Origin: Escherichia coli
GTDB taxonomy: Bacteria; Pseudomonadota; Gammaproteobacteria; Enterobacterales; Enterobacteriaceae
Assembly (NCBI RefSeq): GCF_002854065.1
Contig: NZ_CP024147.1
Reading direction: 5' to 3' (one strand)
DNA: 64,000 bases
Shown: positions 6,421 through 61,817 of the stretch, in pieces
Layout of the letters: each line of letters opens with the position of its first letter
Numbering within the stretch: position 1 is the stretch's first letter
Program-made: the position numbers and the translations under genes
Notes under the pieces: model-generated
Database searches by the model: none
What the model was told of the DNA's origin: nothing
What the model saw: only the letters and a program-made list of their open reading frames with translations

Positions 6421-6744
6421 TCGTTTTTCCTTAAACAAGGAATGCAGCCGTTCAGATTAGCCCTTACATCTCCCCAAAACTGAACGTGCGAGTTATTGGA
6501 ATCGAGTGCTGCACTCCACACCAGAGCTTTGACGACACCACTCGTTTCAATGGGGGAATTCAGTGGCATGGTGTAAAGCACAGCAAAATTGCCAATAACG
6601 AAACCGATTTTAATGTACTTATCAAAAAGCGGTCACGTTAATCTTTTCATCAATGTCGATTTCTTCGTAAAGGCTCGCGTTTTTTATGTCAGAGATTGCA
6701 AGTTGCTTGTACAGGTCAACGAAATTGATCCATAATCATTTTCG

Positions 6745-6818
6745 TTGGAATCGTGTGCTGCACAAAATTAAAGTTAAAAAGTAAAACCCCCGTTCCTTAC
6801 CAGTTCGGGGGTTTTACT
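6745..6818 (+). ncRNA. ohsC: Candidate OhsC antisense sRNA (antitoxin of shoB); boundaries approximate
   Basis: Putative promoter (-35 TTGTAC 6707-6712, 18-nt spacer, -10 CATAAT 6731-6736), a 19-nt segment (6745-6763) that directly repeats 6496-6514 in the shoB 5' region with one mismatch, and a rho-independent terminator hairpin (AAAACCCCCG...CGGGGGTTTT, 6784-6815). Boundaries inferred, not measured. Confidence 0.45.
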
Positions 6819-6841
6819 TTATAAAGAGAACGGTATTATTT

Positions 6842-8704: not shown

Positions 8705-10317
<1,613 letters not shown>

Positions 10318-10559
10318 TCAGCACACGAAACAGACCTGATATACATGGCTCTGCTAACTGCTTCGCTGCAGTTTCAGTTTAGCGGTATATGGGGACCAAC
10401 GCTGTTTCGTGTGCCGTGGCAACCTGGAGGTGCCAACCTTAAACTTCGGGGGAATATTCTATACACAACGACGGGGGATGTCGTTAGCCACGGGAGATTT
10501 ATCTCATAAATAATTCACGTTGTCGCCATAACGGCGACAACGTGAACGAAGATGAGCTA

Positions 10560-11549: not shown

Positions 11550-13349
<1,800 letters not shown>

Positions 13350-13546
13350 AAAGTATGATTATTGTGCCTTAATGCCCGGTTAACCAGGCTTTTAGAAGTC
13401 GCTGTTCTGAGCTTAACGTCTGTATTAATAGAAACGCCGCATTCTACACTACAACATTGAGGCGAGGAAATGTTCATACCGTATGGATTGTGGTATCTGG
13501 AAACGTCCTCGCATTTGTTATGCAAAATGCAACAAAGCCAGTGAAA

Positions 13547-14026
13547 TCACTGGCTCGCGTCTTCCGAAGATGTTTCAAATCGCACAAGGCCAGGCGGCAA
13601 TGCCACGCTTAAGATGATCGGTTGCCATTCTGCCCGGGCAGCAAACTTACGCGAGTAGCCACGCGCAATCAGGAACCCGCCAATACCGCCGAGGACCGCA
13701 CCACATAATGCTGCGACGTCAGAAGCAAAGAGTAGCTGAAATAGCGAAGCGATGAGGAATAATCCCACCAGCGGCGACATATAAACCAGTAATGCGGAGC
13801 TAAGCAGGCTGCCTTCGGCGATCCCCAATTCCACTTTTTGCCCCGGCACTAACGGCTCATCACAGGGTACGACAATGGTATGCGTGGTTTGCGGGCCAAG
13901 TTTATTCAACACGCGGCTACCGCAACCGGCGCGTGAAGCGCAGCTGCTGCATGAGGCTTTAACATCACAACTGACCAGCGCCTGCCCGTTTTGCCAGGAG
14001 ACGACGGTAGCCCACTCTTTGATCAT
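13547..14026 (-). CDS. rseC: Sigma-E regulatory protein RseC
   Basis: 159-aa ORF MIKEWATVVSWQNGQALVSCDVKASCSSCASRAGCGSR... Confidence 0.93.
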   Translation of the reverse strand: MIKEWATVVSWQNGQALVSCDVKASCSSCASRAGCGSRVLNKLGPQTTHTIVVPCDEPLVPGQKVELGIAEGSLLSSALLVYMSPLVGLFLIASLFQLLFASDVAALCGAVLGGIGGFLIARGYSRKFAARAEWQPIILSVALPPGLVRFETSSEDASQ

Positions 14027-14979
14027 TGCGCTGCCCCGAACTTAATATTCTCGGCAATGCGTTTCGCCGTTTGCGGCGGCAGTTCACCGACAATGGTGAT
14101 TTCGGCGTTATCACGTACGCTTGTACTGACGGTTCTGCGTCCGGTGCGCAACATCTGATCGGTGCTCGATGGCGTAGCGCGGTTAACGTTTACCGAGAAG
14201 CTGAATAATCCGTCGGAATAGAGACGTGATTCGATAGGCATGTTGTCCATCGTCGGTAGCGGACGTCGACTACTGGAAACTTCGCTAAAACCCTGTGGCA
14301 ACCAGGTTGGCGTCCAGCTGAATTTAGCTTTTTCACCTACAGGAACAGAAAGCAACGGCGGCAAATTTGCCTTCGCCAGCGTCTGCATACTGCTGCTGAT
14401 ATCCTGATTGACGTTAAAAGCAATCACGCGAAATTGTTCCAGCGTTTCACCATCGCGATCAAGAAGATCAACCCGCATCGGTAATTTCGATTCGGTGTCC
14501 ATCCACACGATGTAGCTGTAGCGTGTACCATCTCGGGCAACCACGCGAATGACTTCGCAAAGACGATCAGCAATACGCGTGCGCCCGACGGAGATAAAGT
14601 CGTAGTAAGGAGAAAGGCGTTTGAAATCGGTATAGATGAGCGATGGCAGAGAATCAACAATGTAATCGCCATTAAGCGTGAACGGTTCAAGTCCCGGTTC
14701 AAAATAGCTGATTTCATTGCCGCGCTGTACCACTTCCCGGCGCGGGCCATCCATTTGCAACAATTGTGCAAGAGGACGGTTATCGAGGCGTGCATGTCGA
14801 TAACGCAGAGACTCAACACCCTGTTTATTGATGCTGATGAATGACAGCTCGTAATTCAGTGACTGACTGGCCAGGTTCATCTGCTGTAATAACGCCCCGG
14901 ACGCGGGAGTGGCCGAGGCGTTAGCAGAGAATAACAGGCTACCTGTCACTAATGACATGGCAAACCAAAGTTGCTTCAT
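14023..14979 (-). CDS. rseB: Sigma-E regulatory protein RseB (periplasmic)
   Basis: 318-aa ORF with signal peptide MKQLWFAMSLVTGSLLFSANASA; 4-nt overlap with rseC. Confidence 0.95.
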   Translation of the reverse strand: MKQLWFAMSLVTGSLLFSANASATPASGALLQQMNLASQSLNYELSFISINKQGVESLRYRHARLDNRPLAQLLQMDGPRREVVQRGNEISYFEPGLEPFTLNGDYIVDSLPSLIYTDFKRLSPYYDFISVGRTRIADRLCEVIRVVARDGTRYSYIVWMDTESKLPMRVDLLDRDGETLEQFRVIAFNVNQDISSSMQTLAKANLPPLLSVPVGEKAKFSWTPTWLPQGFSEVSSSRRPLPTMDNMPIESRLYSDGLFSFSVNVNRATPSSTDQMLRTGRRTVSTSVRDNAEITIVGELPPQTAKRIAENIKFGAAQ

Positions 14980-32118: not shown

Positions 32119-32238
32119 ATGCCTGGCAGTTCCCTACTCTCGCATGGGGAGACCCCACACTACCATCGGCGCTACGGCGTTTCACTTCTGAGTTCGGCAT
32201 GGGGTCAGGTGGGACCACCGCGCTACGGCCGCCAGGCA
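32119..32238 (-). rRNA. rrfG: 5S ribosomal RNA
   Basis: 120-nt reverse-complement match to E. coli 5S rRNA (TGCCTGGCGGC...GGAACTGCCAGGCAT). Confidence 0.95.
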
Positions 32239-32330
32239 AATTCTGTTTTATCAGACCGCTTCTGCGTTCTGATTTAATCTGTATCAGGCTGAAAATCTTC
32301 TCTCATCCGCCAAAACAGCTTCGGCGTTGT

Positions 32331-35233
<2,903 letters not shown>

Positions 35234-35426
35234 TCACAACCCGAAGATGTTTCTTGCGACTCATCATCGTGTTGCGAAAATTTGAGAGACTCACGAACAA
35301 CTTTCGTTGTTCAGTGTTTCAATTTTCAGCTTGATCCAGATTTTTAAAGAGCAAATATCTCAAACATCACCCGAAGATGAGTTTTGAGATATTAAGGTCG
35401 GCGACTTTCACTCACAAACCAGCAAG

Positions 35427-35502
35427 TGGCGTCCCCTAGGGGATTCGAACCCCTGTTACCGCCGTGAAAGGGCGGTGTCCTGGGCCTCTAGACGAAGGGG
35501 AC
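35427..35502 (-). tRNA. gltW: tRNA-Glu (spacer tRNA of the rrn operon)
   Basis: 76-nt reverse-complement match to GTCCCCTTCGTCTAGAGGCCCAGGACACCGCCCTTTCACGGCGGTAACAGGGGTTCGAATCCCCTAGGGGACGCCA. Confidence 0.95.
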
Positions 35503-35587
35503 GTATCAGTCTGCTTCGCAAGACGCCTTGCTTTTCACTTTCTATCAGACAATCTGTGTGAGCACTGCAAAGAACGCTTCTTTAAGG

Positions 35588-37129
<1,542 letters not shown>

Positions 37130-37572: not shown

Positions 37573-40146
37573 TTACTGGACGGCGACAATCCGGTCTTCA
37601 TTAACTTCCAGGCGAATCACTTTACCCGGAACCAATTCACCAGACAGTATTTGCTGTGCCAACGGGTTTTCGATCTGCTGCTGGATAGCACGTTTCAAAG
37701 GACGTGCACCATAGACTGGATCGTAACCGTTCTCGCTCAGCAGTTTCAGCGCCTCGTCAGAAATGTGGATTTCATAACCACGTTCTTCCAGACGTTTGTA
37801 CAGACGTTTCAACTGAATCTGCGCAATCGAGGCAATGTGCTGTTCGCCCAGCGGATGGAAGACCACCACTTCATCGATACGGTTAATGAACTCCGGACGG
37901 AAGTTATGGCTTACCACACCGAGCACCAGTTCTTTCATATGCGCATAATCCAGTTCACCGAAGCGTTCCTGAATCAAATCGGAACCGAGGTTAGAGGTCA
38001 TAATGACAACCGTATTACGGAAGTCGACCGTTCTCCCCTGCCCGTCAGTCAGACGCCCATCATCCAGTACCTGCAACAGAATGTTGAAGACATCCGGATG
38101 CGCTTTTTCCACTTCATCCAGCAGGATAACGGAATACGGACGACGACGCACAGCTTCGGTCAGGTAGCCACCTTCTTCATAACCAACATATCCCGGAGGC
38201 GCACCAACCAGACGAGACACCGAGTGTTTCTCCATAAACTCGGACATATCGATACGGACCATCGCCTCGTCGCTATCAAACATAAAGTTCGCCAGCGCCT
38301 TACAAAGCTCAGTTTTCCCCACACCAGTTGGGCCGAGGAACAGGAATGAACCAATCGGGCGATTTGGATCCGCCAGCCCCGCACGGCTACGACGAATAGC
38401 GTTAGATACCGCATCAACCGCTTCGTTCTGACCAATAACGCGATGGTGCAGTTCTTGCTCCATACGCAGCAGTTTTTCGCGCTCGCTTTCCATCATGCGA
38501 GAAACCGGAATCCCCGTCCAACGCGCCAGCACTTCAGCAATTTCGGCGTCGGTCACTTTATTACGCAACAGACGCATAGTTTTGCCTTCGAGCTGCGTTG
38601 CGGCTTCCAGTTGCTTTTCCAGCTCCGGGATTTTGCCGTATTGCAGTTCAGACATCCGCGCCAGGTCACCCACACGGCGAGCCTGTTCAATAGCGATTTT
38701 CGCCTGTTCCAGTTCCGCTTTAATGGTCTGCGTACCAGAAAGCGATGCTTTCTCTGCTTTCCACTCTTCTTCTAACTCGGAGTACTGACGTTCTTTGTCG
38801 CTCAGTTCTTCGTTGAGCATATCCAGACGTTTTTTACTGGCTTCATCAGACTCTTTCATTAACGCCTGTTGTTCCAGTTTGAGCTGGATGATACGGCGAT
38901 CGAGTCGGTCGAGTTCTTCTGGTTTTGAGTCAATCTGCATACGAATGCTGGATGCTGCTTCATCGATCAGGTCGATGGCTTTATCCGGCAGCTGACGGTC
39001 AGCAATGTAGCGATGAGACAACGTCGCCGCTGCAACAATTGCCGGGTCAGTAATTTGCACATGGTGGTGCAATTCGTAACGTTCTTTCAGGCCACGTAGA
39101 ATCGCAATGGTATCTTCAACAGAAGGCTCGGCAACAAACACTTTCTGGAAACGACGTTCCAGCGCAGCATCTTTTTCGATGTACTGGCGATATTCGTCAA
39201 GCGTCGTGGCACCTACGCAGTGCAATTCACCACGCGCCAGCGCCGGTTTCAGCATGTTTCCGGCGTCCATTGCGCCATCGGCTTTACCCGCGCCGACCAT
39301 GGTATGTAATTCGTCGATAAACAGGATGACGTTGCCTTCCTGTTTGGCAAGATCGTTAAGCACGCCTTTTAAACGTTCTTCAAACTCACCGCGATATTTC
39401 GCCCCAGCCACCAGCGCGCCCATATCCAGCGCCAGTACGCGGCGGCCTTTCAACCCTTCCGGCACTTCGCCGTTGATAATACGCTGCGCCAGACCTTCAA
39501 CGATGGCAGTTTTACCGACGCCGGGTTCACCAATCAGTACCGGATTATTTTTAGTACGACGTTGCAGCACCTGAATGGTACGGCGAATTTCTTCATCACG
39601 ACCAATCACCGGATCGAGTTTGCCCTGTTCGGCTCGTTCGGTAAGGTCGATGGTATATTTTTTCAAAGCCTGACGTTGGTCTTCAGCACCTTGATCGTTC
39701 ACGCTTTCACCTCCACGCATTTGTTCAATCGCTTGAGTAATGTTGGCGGTGGTCGCCCCTGCTGCTTTCAGGATGTCGGCCAGCGTGCCGCGAGACTCAA
39801 GTGCCGCCAGAACGAACAGTTCTGACGAGATAAAGTTATCACCACGTTTTTGCGCCAGCTTGTCGCAAAGATTAAGAACGCGCACCAGATCCTGTGATGG
39901 CTGGACATCACCACCAGTACCTTCAACCTGCGGTAAACGATTTAATGCCTGATTGATATCTGTGCGCAACTGGCCAGCATTTATGCCAGCTGATGTTAAC
40001 AAAGGACTAACCGAACCCCCTTCCTGATTCAGCAGGGCGCTCATTAAATGAAGTGGTTCGATGAATTGGTTGTCGTGCCCGAGTGCAAGTGATTGGGCAT
40101 CGGCAAGAGCAAGCTGGAATTTATTAGTAAGACGATCCAGACGCAT
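37573..40146 (-). CDS. clpB: Chaperone ClpB (AAA+ disaggregase)
   Basis: ORF 37573..40158 trimmed to [27 protein letters not shown]..., 857 aa; two Walker A sites ([16 protein letters not shown]). In-frame GTG at 39700-39702 (Val149) corresponds to the known internal start for the short ClpB isoform. Confidence 0.96.
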
Positions 40147-40182
40147 AACTCCTCCCATAACGGATCAAAGTTGCTACTGGAG

Positions 40183-40214
40183 ATTAAATGAGGTCATCCC
40201 TCAATTATTCAAGG
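40183..40214 (-). promoter_or_regulatory. Sigma-32 heat-shock promoter of clpB (CTTGAA ... CCTCATTTA)
   Basis: Minus-strand CCTTGAATaattgagggatgaCCTCATTTA approximates the sigma-32 consensus (CTTGAAA / CCCCATnT). Confidence 0.5.
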
Positions 40215-40275
40215 TTATTGACCAGATTAATGTGAAAAGAAAATCACACGTACCGGATCGTCTTGATTCTTTAGG

Positions 40276-42118: not shown

Positions 42119-42856
42119 ATGACGCGCATGAAATATCTGGTGGCAGCCGCCACACTAAGCCTGTTTTTGGCGGGTTGCTCGGGGTCAAAGGAAGAAGTAC
42201 CTGATAATCCGCCAAATGAAATTTACGCGACTGCACAACAAAAGCTGCAGGACGGTAACTGGAGACAGGCAATAACGCAACTGGAAGCGTTAGATAATCG
42301 CTATCCGTTTGGTCCGTATTCGCAGCAGGTGCAGCTGGATCTCATCTATGCCTACTATAAAAACGCCGATTTGCCGTTAGCGCAGGCTGCCATCGATCGT
42401 TTTATTCGCCTTAACCCGACCCATCCGAATATCGATTATGTCATGTACATGCGTGGCCTGACCAATATGGCGCTGGATGACAGTGCGCTGCAAGGGTTCT
42501 TTGGCGTTGACCGTAGCGATCGCGATCCTCAACATGCACGAGCTGCGTTTAGTGACTTTTCCAAACTGGTGCGCGGCTATCCAAACAGTCAGTACACCAC
42601 CGATGCCACCAAACGTCTGGTATTCCTGAAAGATCGTCTGGCGAAATATGAATACTCCGTGGCCGAGTACTATACAGAACGTGGCGCATGGGTTGCCGTC
42701 GTTAACCGCGTAGAAGGCATGTTGCGCGACTACCCGGATACCCAGGCTACGCGTGATGCGCTGCCGCTGATGGAAAATGCATACCGTCAGATGCAGATGA
42801 ATGCGCAAGCTGAAAAAGTAGCGAAAATCATCGCCGCAAACAGCAGCAATACATAA
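42119..42856 (+). CDS. bamD: Outer membrane protein assembly factor BamD (TPR lipoprotein)
   Basis: 245-aa ORF with lipoprotein signal [22 protein letters not shown]. Confidence 0.95.
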
Positions 42857-42872
42857 CAGAAACCTGAAACAC

Positions 42873-42905
42873 AAAACGGCAGCCCTTGAGCTGCCGTTTT
42901 TTTAT
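42873..42905 (+). terminator. Rho-independent terminator after bamD
   Basis: CGGCAGC-CCTTGA-GCTGCCG hairpin followed by T8. Confidence 0.7.
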
Positions 42906-43072
42906 TCTGTTAGTTGTGAAACTGAAGCGATTTAGTCACTATCGATCTCATCAAATATGGCTCGCTTTGAGATATTCCTCAAGTAAAAAAACACCTCTTC
43001 CTGCGATTTCTCACAAAAAAGATTCGTTGACAAAAAGTGACAAAATTATGAGATTTCCATCACACATTTTGA

Positions 43073-43468
<396 letters not shown>

Positions 43469-43488
43469 TCCTTTATATTGAGTGTATC

Positions 43489-43516
43489 GCCAACGCGCCT
43501 TCGGGCGCGTTTTTTG
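43489..43516 (+). terminator. Rho-independent terminator of raiA (abuts pheA promoter -35 TTGACA at 43517-43522)
   Basis: AACGCGCC-TTCG-GGCGCGTT hairpin followed by TTTTGTT. Confidence 0.7.
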
Positions 43517-43571
43517 TTGACAGCGTGAAAACAGTACGGGTACTGTACTAAAGTCACTTAAGGAAACAAAC

Positions 43572-43619
43572 ATGAAACACACACCGTTTTTCTTCGCATT
43601 CTTTTTTACCTTCCCCTGA
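43572..43619 (+). CDS. pheL: pheA leader peptide (Phe-rich attenuation peptide)
   Basis: ATG AAA CAC ACA CCG TTT TTC TTC GCA TTC TTT TTT ACC TTC CCC TGA = MKHTPFFFAFFFTFP*, 7 Phe in 15 codons. Confidence 0.85.
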   Translation: MKHTPFFFAFFFTFP

Positions 43620-43665
43620 ATGGGAGGCGTTTCGTCGTGTGAAACAGAATGCGAAGACGAACAAT

Positions 43666-43698
43666 AAGGCCTCCCAAATCGGGGGGCCTTTTTTATTG
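43666..43698 (+). terminator. pheA attenuator terminator
   Basis: AAGGCCTCCC-AAATC-GGGGGGCCTT hairpin followed by T-run, 20 nt upstream of the pheA start. Confidence 0.8.
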
Positions 43699-43717
43699 AT
43701 AACAAAAAGGCAACACT

Positions 43718-44878
43718 ATGACATCGGAAAACCCGTTACTGGCGCTGCGAGAGAAAATCAGCGCGCTGGATGAAAAATTATTAGCATTACTCGCAGAGCG
43801 GCGCGAACTGGCCGTCGAGGTGGGAAAAGCCAAACTGCTCTCGCATCGCCCGGTACGTGATATTGATCGTGAACGCGATTTACTGGAAAGATTAATTACG
43901 CTCGGTAAAGCGCACCATCTGGACGCCCATTACATTACTCGCCTGTTCCAGCTCATCATTGAAGATTCCGTATTAACTCAGCAGGCTTTGCTCCAGCAAC
44001 ATCTCAATAAAATTAATCCGCACTCAGCACGCATCGCTTTTCTCGGCCCCAAAGGTTCTTATTCCCATCTTGCGGCGCGCCAGTATGCTGCCCGTCACTT
44101 TGAGCAATTCATTGAAAGTGGCTGCGCCAAATTTGCCGATATTTTTAATCAGGTGGAAACCGGCCAGGCCGACTATGCCGTCGTACCGATTGAAAATACC
44201 AGCTCCGGTGCCATAAACGACGTTTACGATCTGCTGCAACATACCAGCTTGTCGATTGTTGGCGAGATGACGTTAACTATCGACCATTGTTTGTTAGTCT
44301 CCGGCACGACTGATTTATCCACCATCAATACGGTCTACAGCCATCCGCAGCCATTCCAGCAATGCAGCAAATTCCTTAATCGTTATCCGCACTGGAAGAT
44401 TGAATATACCGAAAGTACGTCTGCGGCAATGGAAAAGGTTGCACAGGCAAAATCACCGCATGTTGCTGCGTTGGGAAGCGAAGCTGGCGGCACTTTGTAC
44501 GGTTTGCAGGTACTGGAGCGGATTGAAGCGAATCAGCGACAAAACTTCACCCGATTTGTGGTGTTGGCGCGTAAAGCCATTAACGTGTCTGATCAGGTTC
44601 CGGCGAAAACGACGTTGTTAATGGCGACCGGGCAACAAGCCGGTGCGCTGGTTGAAGCGTTGCTGGTACTGCGCAACCACAATCTGATTATGACCCGTCT
44701 GGAATCACGCCCGATTCACGGTAATCCATGGGAAGAGATGTTTTATCTGGATATTCAGGCCAATCTTGAATCAGCGGAAATGCAAAAAGCATTGAAAGAG
44801 TTAGGGGAAATCACCCGTTCAATGAAGGTATTGGGCTGTTACCCAAGTGAGAACGTAGTGCCTGTTGATCCAACCTGA
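43718..44878 (+). CDS. pheA: Bifunctional chorismate mutase / prephenate dehydratase
   Basis: 386-aa [35 protein letters not shown]... Confidence 0.97.
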
Positions 44879-61454: not shown

Positions 61455-61817
61455 GGGGCTGATTCTGGATTCGACGGGATTTGCGAAACCCAAGGTGCAT
61501 GCCGAGGGGCGGTTGGCCTCGTAAAAAGCCGCAAAAAATAGTCGCAAACGACGAAAACTACGCTTTAGCAGCTTAATAACCTGCTTAGAGCCCTCTCTCC
61601 CTAGCCTCCGCTCTTAGGACGGGGATCAAGAGAGGTCAAACCCAAAAGAGATCGCGTGGAAGCCCTGCCTGGGGTTGAAGCGTTAAAACTTAATCAGGCT
61701 AGTTTGTTAGTGGCGTGTCCGTCCGCAGCTGGCAAGCGAATGTAAAGACTGACTAAGCATGTAGTACCGAGGATGTAGGAATTTCGGACGCGGGTTCAAC
61801 TCCCGCCAGCTCCACCA
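61455..61817 (+). ncRNA. ssrA: tmRNA (SsrA), 363 nt
   Basis: Starts GGGGCTGATTCTGGATTCGACGGG, contains tag reading frame GCAAACGACGAAAACTACGCTTTAGCAGCTTAA (ANDENYALAA*), ends with tRNA-like ...GGTTCAACTCCCGCCAGCTCCACCA. Confidence 0.97.

What the first reader, a model, noticed from the sequence alone, without database searches (positions are those of the whole stretch)
43489..43698. Compact regulatory stack: raiA terminator abutting the pheA promoter, pheL leader peptide and attenuator
Within 210 bp the sequence shows the raiA terminator hairpin, a TTGACA -35 immediately adjacent, the Phe-rich 15-codon leader (7 Phe codons) and the attenuator terminator hairpin 20 nt before pheA. It is a textbook attenuation unit, intact here.
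Basis: partly seen in the sequence, partly recalled or inferred. Interest (0 to 1): 0.15.

Follow-up and report, generated by a model that had tools for sequence, protein, structure and literature searches.

The report
Textbook E. coli pheL-pheA attenuator, intact
This 210-bp stretch is the well-known control region of the E. coli phenylalanine gene pheA (upstream terminator, promoter, Phe-rich leader peptide and attenuator); it is intact and identical to that of many E. coli genomes, so it is ordinary.

Summary
- the raiA terminator hairpin (43492-43511, T-run to 43515);
- a perfect TTGACA -35 one base later (43517-43522);
- the 15-codon leader pheL (43572-43619, MKHTPFFFAFFFTFP, 7 Phe);
- the attenuator hairpin (43666-43690, U-run to 43695), 22 nt before the pheA ATG (43718).

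Rfam Phe_leader matches end to end at 132 bits against a threshold of 55. The stretch is 100% identical to many E. coli genomes and is present in 5425 of 5426 complete ones. It differs from K-12 at one base, pheL codon 4 (Thr, the majority allele, versus Ile).

With a ribosome on codons 5-13, which covers six of the seven Phe codons, GGGAGGC (43622-43628) is free and pairs with the terminator's 5' arm. With no ribosome, or one on codons 1-4 or at Pro/stop, the long 1:2 hairpin and the terminator form instead.

In 78 enterobacterial species the 1:2 hairpin and terminator are supported by compensatory changes. The antiterminator core is invariant, which is consistent with the model but not independent evidence.

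The element is already known and of low interest.

The parts
43127..43468 (+). raiA CDS (ribosome-associated inhibitor A), the upstream gene
   Evidence: ORF; Pfam Ribosomal_S30AE at 81.5 bits; annotated raiA in K-12 and other E. coli genomes
43354..43515 (+). RaiZ sRNA, a 3'-derived ProQ-dependent sRNA that covers the last third of raiA and its 3' UTR and terminator
   Evidence: K-12 annotation b4805 at 2737381-2737542 maps here with an offset of 41972 from locus L001. The window is identical to K-12 over this span. Biology is described in PMC5391140. No experiment was done on this strain.
43492..43515 (+). raiA/RaiZ intrinsic terminator: stem 43492-43499/43504-43511, UUCG loop, T-run 43510-43515
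   Evidence: Terminator scan; -14.4 kcal/mol; about 69 of 78 species carry the same stem sequence
43517..43522 (+). pheL-pheA promoter -35 hexamer, TTGACA
   Evidence: Read directly. It is invariant in alignment A1, but exact TTGACA was used to anchor that alignment. Of the 79 loci with enough upstream sequence, 78 have TTGACA and L026 has TTTACA.
43541..43546 (+). Probable -10 hexamer TACTGT (18-nt spacer), with an inferred transcription start near 43552-43554
   Evidence: T43541, A43542 and T43546 are invariant across 78 species, giving the TAnnnT pattern. The scan did not detect it (3 of 6 match). The start site is inferred, not mapped here.
43560..43564 (+). Shine-Dalgarno sequence of pheL (AAGGA), 7 nt before the ATG
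   Evidence: AGG is conserved in the alignment
43572..43619 (+). pheL leader peptide gene, MKHTPFFFAFFFTFP*. Phe codons are 6-8, 10-12 and 14 (43587-43613). It ends in the shift-prone UUC_CCC_UGA.
   Evidence: annotated pheL in identical genomes; the core FFFAFFFTFP is conserved in nearly all of 80 loci; PMC3082878
43586..43662 (+). 1:2 'protector/pause' hairpin, -32.7 kcal/mol. Its 5' strand is the Phe-codon run, and its apical part pairs CUUCCC (43610-43615) with GGGAGG (43622-43627).
   Evidence: Minimum-free-energy fold; Rfam consensus; RNAalifold; 98% of cells paired with 5 compensated pairs in the main helix; NusA-sensitive pause reported in PMC9291695
43612..43686 (+). Antiterminator (2:3). 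Its core is GGGAGGC 43622-43628 paired with GCCUCCC 43669-43675, extended by UCCCCUGA 43612-43619 paired with UCGGGGGG 43679-43686. Energy is -36.8 kcal/mol.
   Evidence: Ribosome-masked folds. The core is invariant across 78 species and shows no covariation. It agrees with the description in PMC3082878.
43666..43695 (+). Attenuator (3:4) intrinsic terminator: stem 43666-43675/43681-43690 and U-run 43690-43695
   Evidence: Terminator scan, 10 pairs of which 7 are G-C; -19.0 kcal/mol; compensated pair 43668:43688 with G-C in 59, A-U in 13 and G-U in 4 species
43718..44878 (+). pheA CDS (chorismate mutase / prephenate dehydratase), the regulated gene. Its Shine-Dalgarno AAGG is at 43707-43710.
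   Evidence: ORF; Pfam CM_2 + PDT; annotation

Best explanation
This is the E. coli pheL-pheA transcription attenuator with its promoter, placed directly after the raiA/RaiZ terminator.

Proposed sequence of events:
1. RNA polymerase starts about 43553 from a promoter with a strong -35 and a weak -10.
2. It transcribes pheL and pauses after the long 1:2 hairpin forms.
3. A ribosome translating pheL then decides the outcome.

If charged tRNA-Phe is scarce, the ribosome stalls on the Phe codons (43587-43613). This melts the 5' strand of the 1:2 hairpin and frees GGGAGGC (43622-43628). That segment pairs with the terminator's 5' arm (43669-43675) as soon as the arm emerges, so the terminator cannot form and pheA is transcribed.

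If Phe is plentiful, the ribosome runs on to Pro15/UGA and covers GGGAGGC. If no ribosome loads, the 1:2 hairpin holds GGGAGGC instead. In both cases the 3:4 hairpin and U-run terminate transcription about 22 nt before pheA.

Shown here: the sequence elements, the family match, the identity to characterised E. coli DNA, the alternative folds and their dependence on ribosome position, and conservation and covariation of the 1:2 and 3:4 helices.

Taken from the literature or inferred: the start site, the pausing, and the in vivo response to Phe-tRNA.
For: - Rfam RF01859 Phe_leader scores 132.2 bits against a gathering score of 55, over model positions 1-125 of 125, E = 2.8e-25.
- The stretch is 100% identical to many E. 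coli genomes, where it is annotated 'Phe leader region | pheL | pheA | raiA', and is present in 5425 of 5426 complete genomes.
- It has one difference from K-12 within 43489-43698.
- The unconstrained fold gives the 1:2 hairpin plus terminator at -52.2 kcal/mol, z = -5.97.
- With the A-site on codons 5-13, region 3 pairs with 43622-43628 before region 4 exists. The best antiterminator-containing fold beats the best terminator-containing fold for codons 5-11 (for example -36.8 against -35.2 kcal/mol).
- With the A-site on codons 1-4 or 15-16, or with no ribosome, region 3 stays free. For codons 1-4 and with no ribosome the terminator wins by 6-15 kcal/mol; at codons 15-16 the antiterminator core is covered and cannot form.
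- Across 78 species the terminated conformation is 95% paired, 11 pairs carry changes on both sides, 0 of 500 shuffles reach the observed values, and slid controls pair at 44-59%.
- RNAalifold returns the same helices independently.
- The downstream protein has CM_2 + PDT domains.
- Literature on the same sequence covers the attenuation model, a 6-7-fold derepression in a tRNA-Phe (pheR) mutant, and a basal level set by release at UGA (PMC3082878). A NusA-enhanced pause at the hairpin is also reported (PMC9291695).
Against: - The consensus promoter scan found no sigma-70 site here. The -10 is assigned from conservation only, and the start site was not mapped.
- The antiterminator has no covariation support, because its core never varies.
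- For A-sites on codons 12-14 the equilibrium energies favour the terminator by about 3 kcal/mol. The argument there rests on order of synthesis.
- The ribosome footprint (A-site +12 nt) and equilibrium folding are simplifications.
- Published compensatory mutants of the pause hairpin gave no clear rescue (PMC9291695).
- No experiment exists on this exact strain.
Confidence: 0.97

Rival explanations
1. Control works mainly through a nascent-peptide arrest at the stop codon, as in TnaC. The conserved C-terminus ...FTFP followed by UGA would stall the ribosome, and the dwell time at the stop, rather than stalling at Phe codons, would set pheA expression.
For: UUC_CCC_UGA is nearly invariant across 80 loci. 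PMC3082878 reports that the penultimate Phe and terminal Pro hinder termination and that basal pheA expression depends on release efficiency. PMC5373646 reports unusually high ribosome density on the pheL UGAA stop in K-12.
Against: A ribosome at the stop covers GGGAGGC and favours termination, not read-through. The invariance is explained by these bases pairing in three structures: protector, antiterminator and terminator (PMC3082878 discussion). Several species replace the stop context (FPN-UAG, or read-through to UAA) yet keep the Phe run and the helices. A tRNA-Phe gene mutant derepresses 6-7-fold. At most this mechanism modulates the basal level.
Confidence: 0.05
2. The +1 frameshift at CCC_UGA is programmed. 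Shifted ribosomes would translate through the attenuator to 43773 and either antiterminate or make a functional extended peptide.
For: The shift-prone site is present (43611-43619), and the +1 frame is open to 43773, inside pheA. Frameshifting of 15% was measured in K-12 (PMC3082878), and extended products were seen in K-12 (PMC5373646).
Against: Mutants that raise frameshifting up to 14.5-fold did not change pheA-lacZ expression, and the +1 peptide is not conserved in length or sequence (PMC3082878). The extended products vanish with the non-K-12 RF2 variant.
Confidence: 0.02
3. The leader is regulated by a protein repressor or by direct ligand or tRNA binding (riboswitch or T-box type) rather than by a translating ribosome.
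For: Historically a repressor gene, pheR, was postulated. The leader is highly structured.
Against: pheR encodes tRNA-Phe, not a repressor (PMC3082878). No riboswitch or T-box family matches on either strand, even at E <= 1. A translatable Phe-rich ORF with a Shine-Dalgarno sequence is conserved in frame across 80 loci.
Confidence: 0.01

Closest known systems
E. coli K-12 pheL-pheA leader/attenuator (Rfam RF01859 Phe_leader; Zurawski et al. 1978, Keller & Calvo 1979, as cited in PMC9291695; Gurvich et al. 2011, PMC3082878)
   Same: It is the same locus. The DNA is identical across 43489-43698 except for one base. Gene order (raiA-pheL-pheA-tyrA-aroF), helices, stop context and distances are all the same.
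   Different: pheL codon 4 is ACA (Thr) instead of K-12's ATA (Ile). The Thr allele is the commoner one, in 3994 against 1398 of 5426 complete E. coli genomes. The base lies outside every helix.
Other ribosome-mediated amino-acid operon attenuators (trpL, hisL, leuL, thrL, ilvL)
   Same: All share the same logic: a short leader ORF rich in the cognate codon, a 1:2 pause hairpin, a 2:3 antiterminator and a 3:4 terminator.
   Different: The regulatory codons here are Phe (7 of 15). The 1:2 hairpin is unusually long and stable (-32.7 kcal/mol; called 'hyperstable' in PMC9291695). The antiterminator strand sits in the apical part of that hairpin, immediately after the stop codon.
RaiZ, the 3'-UTR-derived ProQ-dependent sRNA of Salmonella and E. 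coli (PMC5391140)
   Same: The 'raiA terminator' in the finding is the RaiZ terminator. The sequence is identical to the K-12 raiZ annotation.
   Different: It is not part of the attenuator. It is adjacent to the pheL promoter, and no functional link between the two is known.

Membership tests
Rfam RF01859 Phe_leader | Covariance-model score at or above the curated gathering score, over the full model length | tested here: met
   132.2 bits against 55; model positions 1-125 of 125; window 43571-43696, + strand
Ribosome-mediated transcription attenuator (trp/phe/his/leu/thr type) | A short translatable leader ORF with a Shine-Dalgarno sequence, enriched in codons for the end-product amino acid | tested here: met
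   AAGGA, then 7 nt, then ATG. There are 15 codons, 7 of them Phe. The ORF is conserved in frame in 80 loci.
Ribosome-mediated transcription attenuator (trp/phe/his/leu/thr type) | An intrinsic terminator between the leader ORF and the structural gene | tested here: met
   10-bp stem with 7 G-C pairs plus U6 at 43666-43695; -19.0 kcal/mol; one compensated pair across species
Ribosome-mediated transcription attenuator (trp/phe/his/leu/thr type) | An antiterminator pairing that excludes the terminator and is itself blocked by an upstream 1:2 hairpin | tested here: met
   43622-43628 pairs either with 43610-43615 (inside the 1:2 hairpin) or with 43669-43675 (the terminator's 5' arm). This is thermodynamic prediction only.
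Ribosome-mediated transcription attenuator (trp/phe/his/leu/thr type) | Control codons placed so that a stalled ribosome opens 1:2 but leaves 2 free, while a ribosome at the stop covers 2 | tested here: met
   With the A-site on codons 5-13, region 3 is captured by region 2. With the A-site on codons 15-16, region 2 is covered and the terminator forms. An A-site +12 nt footprint was assumed.
Ribosome-mediated transcription attenuator (trp/phe/his/leu/thr type) | Evolutionary support for the alternative helices | tested here: inconclusive
   The 1:2 and 3:4 helices are supported: 95% paired, 11 doubly changed pairs, 0 of 500 shuffles. The 2:3 core is invariant, so it shows conserved complementarity but no covariation.
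Ribosome-mediated transcription attenuator (trp/phe/his/leu/thr type) | The downstream gene makes the amino acid that the leader senses | tested here: met
   PheA has CM_2 (69.8 bits) and PDT (211.7 bits) domains
Ribosome-mediated transcription attenuator (trp/phe/his/leu/thr type) | Read-through rises when charged cognate tRNA is limiting | not testable with these tools
   Reported for the K-12 and Salmonella locus: 6-7-fold in a pheR (tRNA-Phe gene) mutant (PMC3082878). It was not measured for this DNA.
Sigma-70 promoter | -35 and -10 hexamers with a 16-18 nt spacer that match the consensus | tested here: inconclusive
   The -35 matches 6 of 6. The best -10, TACTGT, matches 3 of 6 with an 18-nt spacer and fails the scan. 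However, T, A and the final T are invariant in 78 species. The start site was not mapped here.
RaiZ sRNA (K-12 b4805) | Sequence identity with the annotated sRNA gene, including its terminator | tested here: met
   K-12 2737381-2737542 corresponds to window 43354-43515, with no differences. Rfam has no RaiZ model.

The most novel reading that the evidence does not exclude
The raiA/RaiZ terminator hairpin may be more than a neighbour of the pheL promoter. Its stem sequence is the same in about 69 of 78 species from Escherichia to Erwinia and Mixta, which is unusual for an intrinsic terminator. It always ends 1-2 bases before the -35, and its T-run fills the -37 to -42 region.

It could therefore act as an upstream promoter element or insulator for the weak-(-10) pheL promoter. 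It could also couple raiA/RaiZ termination to pheL initiation.

The alternative explanation is that the conservation reflects only RaiZ-ProQ binding, and that P2-family phages exploit it as an attachment site because it is conserved.
Probability: 0.12. Interest if true: 0.3.

Novelty: already known. Interest (0 to 1): 0.05.

Why it matters
It matters little beyond correct annotation. The locus has been one of the classic examples of transcription attenuation since 1978, and this copy is a common natural allele.

The check is useful in three ways:
- it supplies exact coordinates for each element;
- it records that the upstream terminator is shared with the sRNA RaiZ and is a prophage attachment site in other genomes.

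Tried and rejected
- **Promoter scan.** The consensus scan over 42800-44000 returned no sites. The promoter call therefore rests on the perfect -35 and on conservation of TAnnnT.
- **Sub-threshold Rfam hits in 42800-44000.** These were Arrc14, sraA, STnc130 (minus strand, on the raiA terminator), ctRNA_p42d, anti-hemB, BTnc231 and sX6. All scored far below their gathering scores, with E = 0.07-0.9, and mostly match generic terminator hairpins. They were rejected as chance.
- **Antisense ORFs.** The ORFs at 43046-43705 (219 aa) and 43075-43557 (160 aa) on the minus strand are mechanical ORFs opposite raiA and pheL. Nothing is annotated there in K-12, and they were not pursued.
- **Covariation test of the antiterminator.** It was uninformative because the core is invariant.
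- **Original papers.** Zurawski 1978 (PMC336095) and Keller & Calvo 1979 (PMC411828) are not held. They are cited only through reference lists.
- **Promoter and start-site literature.** A full-text search for the pheA promoter and start site gave nothing usable.
- **Prophage integrase.** A search of deposited phage genomes for the integrase found at this site gave only 64% identity, to Klebsiella P2-like phages, so the phage could not be named.

Full report
**What is there.**

The window around the finding reads bamD (42119-42856), raiA (43127-43468), a 250-bp intergenic region, then pheA (43718-44878). tyrA and aroF converge on the minus strand. Pfam confirms RaiA (Ribosomal_S30AE), PheA (CM_2 + PDT) and BamD (YfiO).

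The intergenic region contains, in order:
- an 8-bp G+C-rich hairpin with a UUCG loop and a T-run (43492-43515, -14.4 kcal/mol);
- TTGACA (43517-43522), one base later;
- TACTGT (43541-43546), after an 18-nt spacer;
- AAGGA (43560-43564);
- a 15-codon ORF, MKHTPFFFAFFFTFP, ending UUC CCC UGA (43572-43619);
- a hairpin AAGGCCUCCC/GGGGGGCCUU followed by U6 (43666-43695, -19.0 kcal/mol);
- the pheA Shine-Dalgarno sequence and ATG (43707-43710 and 43718).

The gap between the U-run and the pheA ATG is 22 nt.

**Identity.**

Rfam's Phe_leader model matches 43571-43696 from end to end at 132.2 bits, against a gathering score of 55 (E = 2.8e-25). It is the only family above threshold in this region on either strand.

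A 321-bp query across the finding is 100% identical to many complete E. coli genomes and is found in 5425 of 5426. There it is annotated raiA / Phe leader region / pheL / pheA.

Against K-12 MG1655 the interval 43489-43698 differs at one base, 43582 C versus T. This makes pheL codon 4 ACA (Thr) rather than ATA (Ile). Searches with 41-mers centred on that base found the Thr allele in 3994 genomes and the K-12 Ile allele in 1398. The window therefore carries the majority allele.

That codon is variable among enterobacteria (T, V, L, I, K and others) and lies 5' of all helices. 'Intact' is justified.

**The switch.**

Unconstrained, the leader folds into two structures (-52.2 kcal/mol, z = -5.97 against shuffles):
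- a long hairpin (43586-43662, -32.7 kcal/mol) whose 5' strand is the Phe-codon run and whose tip pairs CUUCCC (43610-43615) with GGGAGG (43622-43627);
- the terminator.

I then masked the RNA under a ribosome, from A-site -15 to +12 nt, at each codon and folded what remains.

| Ribosome A-site | What forms | Energies (kcal/mol) |
|---|---|---|
| Codons 5-13 (all Phe codons but the last) | GGGAGGC (43622-43628) pairs with GCCUCCC (43669-43675) as soon as that segment is made, before the terminator's 3' arm exists | Full antiterminator -36.8; beats the best terminator fold for codons 5-11 (e.g. -36.8 vs -35.2) |
| Codons 12-14 | Antiterminator can still form first, but equilibrium favours the terminator | Terminator favoured by about 3; the argument is kinetic |
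| Codons 1-4, or no ribosome | The 1:2 hairpin holds GGGAGGC, the terminator's 5' arm stays free and the terminator forms | Terminator wins by 6-15 |
| Codons 15-16 (Pro, stop) | The ribosome covers GGGAGGC, the 5' arm stays free and the terminator forms | Antiterminator core cannot form; best terminator fold -25.9 to -27.4 |

The computed pairings agree with the published description. In that description the C's of the terminal proline codon pair with downstream G's in both the pause and antitermination stems (PMC3082878).

**Comparative evidence.**

A scan of one genome per species with PheA returned 80 loci from Escherichia to Erwinia and Mixta, at 79-99% PheA identity. All carry a pheL-like ORF with the core FFFAFFFTFP or a close variant.

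In a MAFFT alignment of 78 distinct upstream regions, the terminated conformation behaves as follows:
- 95% of cells form standard pairs;
- 11 pairs carry changes on both sides;
- no shuffle out of 500 reaches the observed values;
- slid controls pair at only 44-59%.

The clearest compensation is in the terminator at 43668:43688, with G-C in 59 species, A-U in 13 and G-U in 4. RNAalifold, which does not start from the window sequence, returns the same 1:2 hairpin and terminator.

The antiterminator core is 100% complementary but never varies, so it gains no covariation support. That invariance is expected, because these bases must fit three alternative helices.

**Promoter.**

TTGACA directly follows the upstream T-run in 78 of the 79 loci with enough sequence. 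L026 has TTTACA. I used exact TTGACA to anchor the alignment, so its invariance there is partly by construction.

The -10 is weak, and the consensus scan did not report a promoter. However, T43541, A43542 and T43546 are invariant across species, which is the TAnnnT signature at an 18-nt spacing. A start near 43553 and a terminated leader of about 140 nt are inferences. I could not retrieve the original mapping papers.

**Mechanism and literature.**

The best explanation is classical ribosome-mediated attenuation. Published work on the same sequence reports:
- the 1:2 / 2:3 / 3:4 model;
- roughly 10% basal read-through, which depends on ribosome release at UGA;
- 6-7-fold derepression when one tRNA-Phe gene (pheR) is lost;
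- 15% +1 frameshifting at UUC_CCC_UGA in K-12, which does not affect pheA expression (PMC3082878);
- a 17-s transcriptional pause lengthened about 1.9-fold by NusA, although compensatory stem mutants were inconclusive (PMC9291695);
- heavy ribosome density on the pheL stop only with K-12's weak RF2 (PMC5373646).

The window retains the shift-prone site, and its +1 frame is open to 43773. On the published evidence this is incidental.

First, the 'raiA terminator' is also the terminator of RaiZ, a ProQ-dependent sRNA cut from the raiA 3' end. K-12 annotates it at positions equivalent to 43354-43515, and the window is identical there.

Second, this hairpin is an attachment site for P2-family prophages:
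- 155 E. coli genomes carry a second partial copy of the query.
- In the one I examined (NZ_CP028192.1), a 35.6-kb P2-like prophage lies between raiA and pheL.
- It is flanked by a duplicated core, CAACGC(G/A)CCTTCGGGCGCGTTTTTTGT, which ends at the first T of the -35.
- Both raiA and the pheL promoter therefore keep a hairpin.
- Citrobacter sp. R56 and Cedecea davisae have a related integrase (57-58% identity) at the same spot and no raiA within 2.5 kb.
- No deposited phage genome has a close relative of this integrase; the best match is 64%.

None of this is present in the window itself.

**Verdict.**

The element is already known, and interest is low.

The only mildly open point is why the upstream terminator's sequence, and not just its structure, is conserved so widely and always abuts the -35. 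RaiZ-ProQ binding is the likeliest reason. A contribution to pheL promoter function is not excluded, and I give it about 12%.

Noticed in passing
window 43354-43515: The raiA terminator named in the finding is also the 3' end of the ProQ-dependent sRNA RaiZ (K-12 b4805). The window is identical to K-12 over the whole sRNA. Rfam has no model for it.
   Followed up: partly
window 43490-43517; L083 (NZ_CP028192.1) 148-36236; L006 and L061 around 1198-2300: In other genomes the raiA/RaiZ terminator hairpin and T-run serve as the attachment site of P2-family prophages. A 35.6-kb prophage with a duplicated 27-bp core separates raiA from pheL in E. coli CFSAN018748. In total, 155 E. coli genomes show a second partial copy of the query. 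Related integrases (57-58% identity) sit at the same spot in a Citrobacter and a Cedecea genome. The best match to this integrase among deposited phage genomes is 64% identical.
   Followed up: partly
window 43581-43583: pheL codon 4 is polymorphic in E. coli. ACA (Thr, as here) occurs in 3994 complete genomes and ATA (Ile, a rare codon, as in K-12) in 1398 of 5426. The position lies outside all predicted helices and varies between species.
   Followed up: yes
window 43611-43620 and 43618-43773: pheL ends in the known +1 shift-prone UUC_CCC_UGA_A. The +1 frame stays open for 51 codons, to 43773 inside pheA. The literature treats this frameshifting as incidental and as largely an effect of K-12's weak RF2.
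   Followed up: partly
loci L014, L015, L081; L025, L028, L037; L021, L065, L072; L047, L055, L056; L036: Several natural leader variants occur in other genera:
- an extra Phe block, giving 9-10 Phe (L014, L015, L081);
- FFFARFF, with partly compensating changes in the opposite strand of the 1:2 hairpin (L025, L028, L037);
- loss of the UGA stop, so the leader ORF reads 8 more codons across GGGAGGC (Trabulsiella, Mangrovibacter; L021, L065, L072);
- FPN/FPS-UAG endings (Kosakonia; L047, L055, L056);
- an insertion of roughly 60-70 nt between the attenuator and pheA in Raoultella terrigena (L036).
   Followed up: no
window 43492-43522, and alignment A1 columns 8-58: The upstream terminator's stem sequence (ACGCGCC...GGCGCGT) is the same in about 69 of 78 species and always ends 1-2 bases before the -35. 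This level of sequence conservation is unusual for an intrinsic terminator. Only a few lineages differ: Pluralibacter and some Enterobacter, three Klebsiella/Cedecea-like genomes, Tenebrionibacter and one Erwinia.
   Followed up: partly
window 6744-6820, 10233-10447, 13231-14062, 32121-37129, 40127-40265, 61455-61817: The rest of the window is the standard E. coli neighbourhood. It holds ohsC RNA, the rncO leader, an AsrC-type antisense match over rseC, the rrnG operon (5S, 23S, tRNA-Glu, 16S, on the minus strand), RyfD and tmRNA (ssrA).
   Followed up: no
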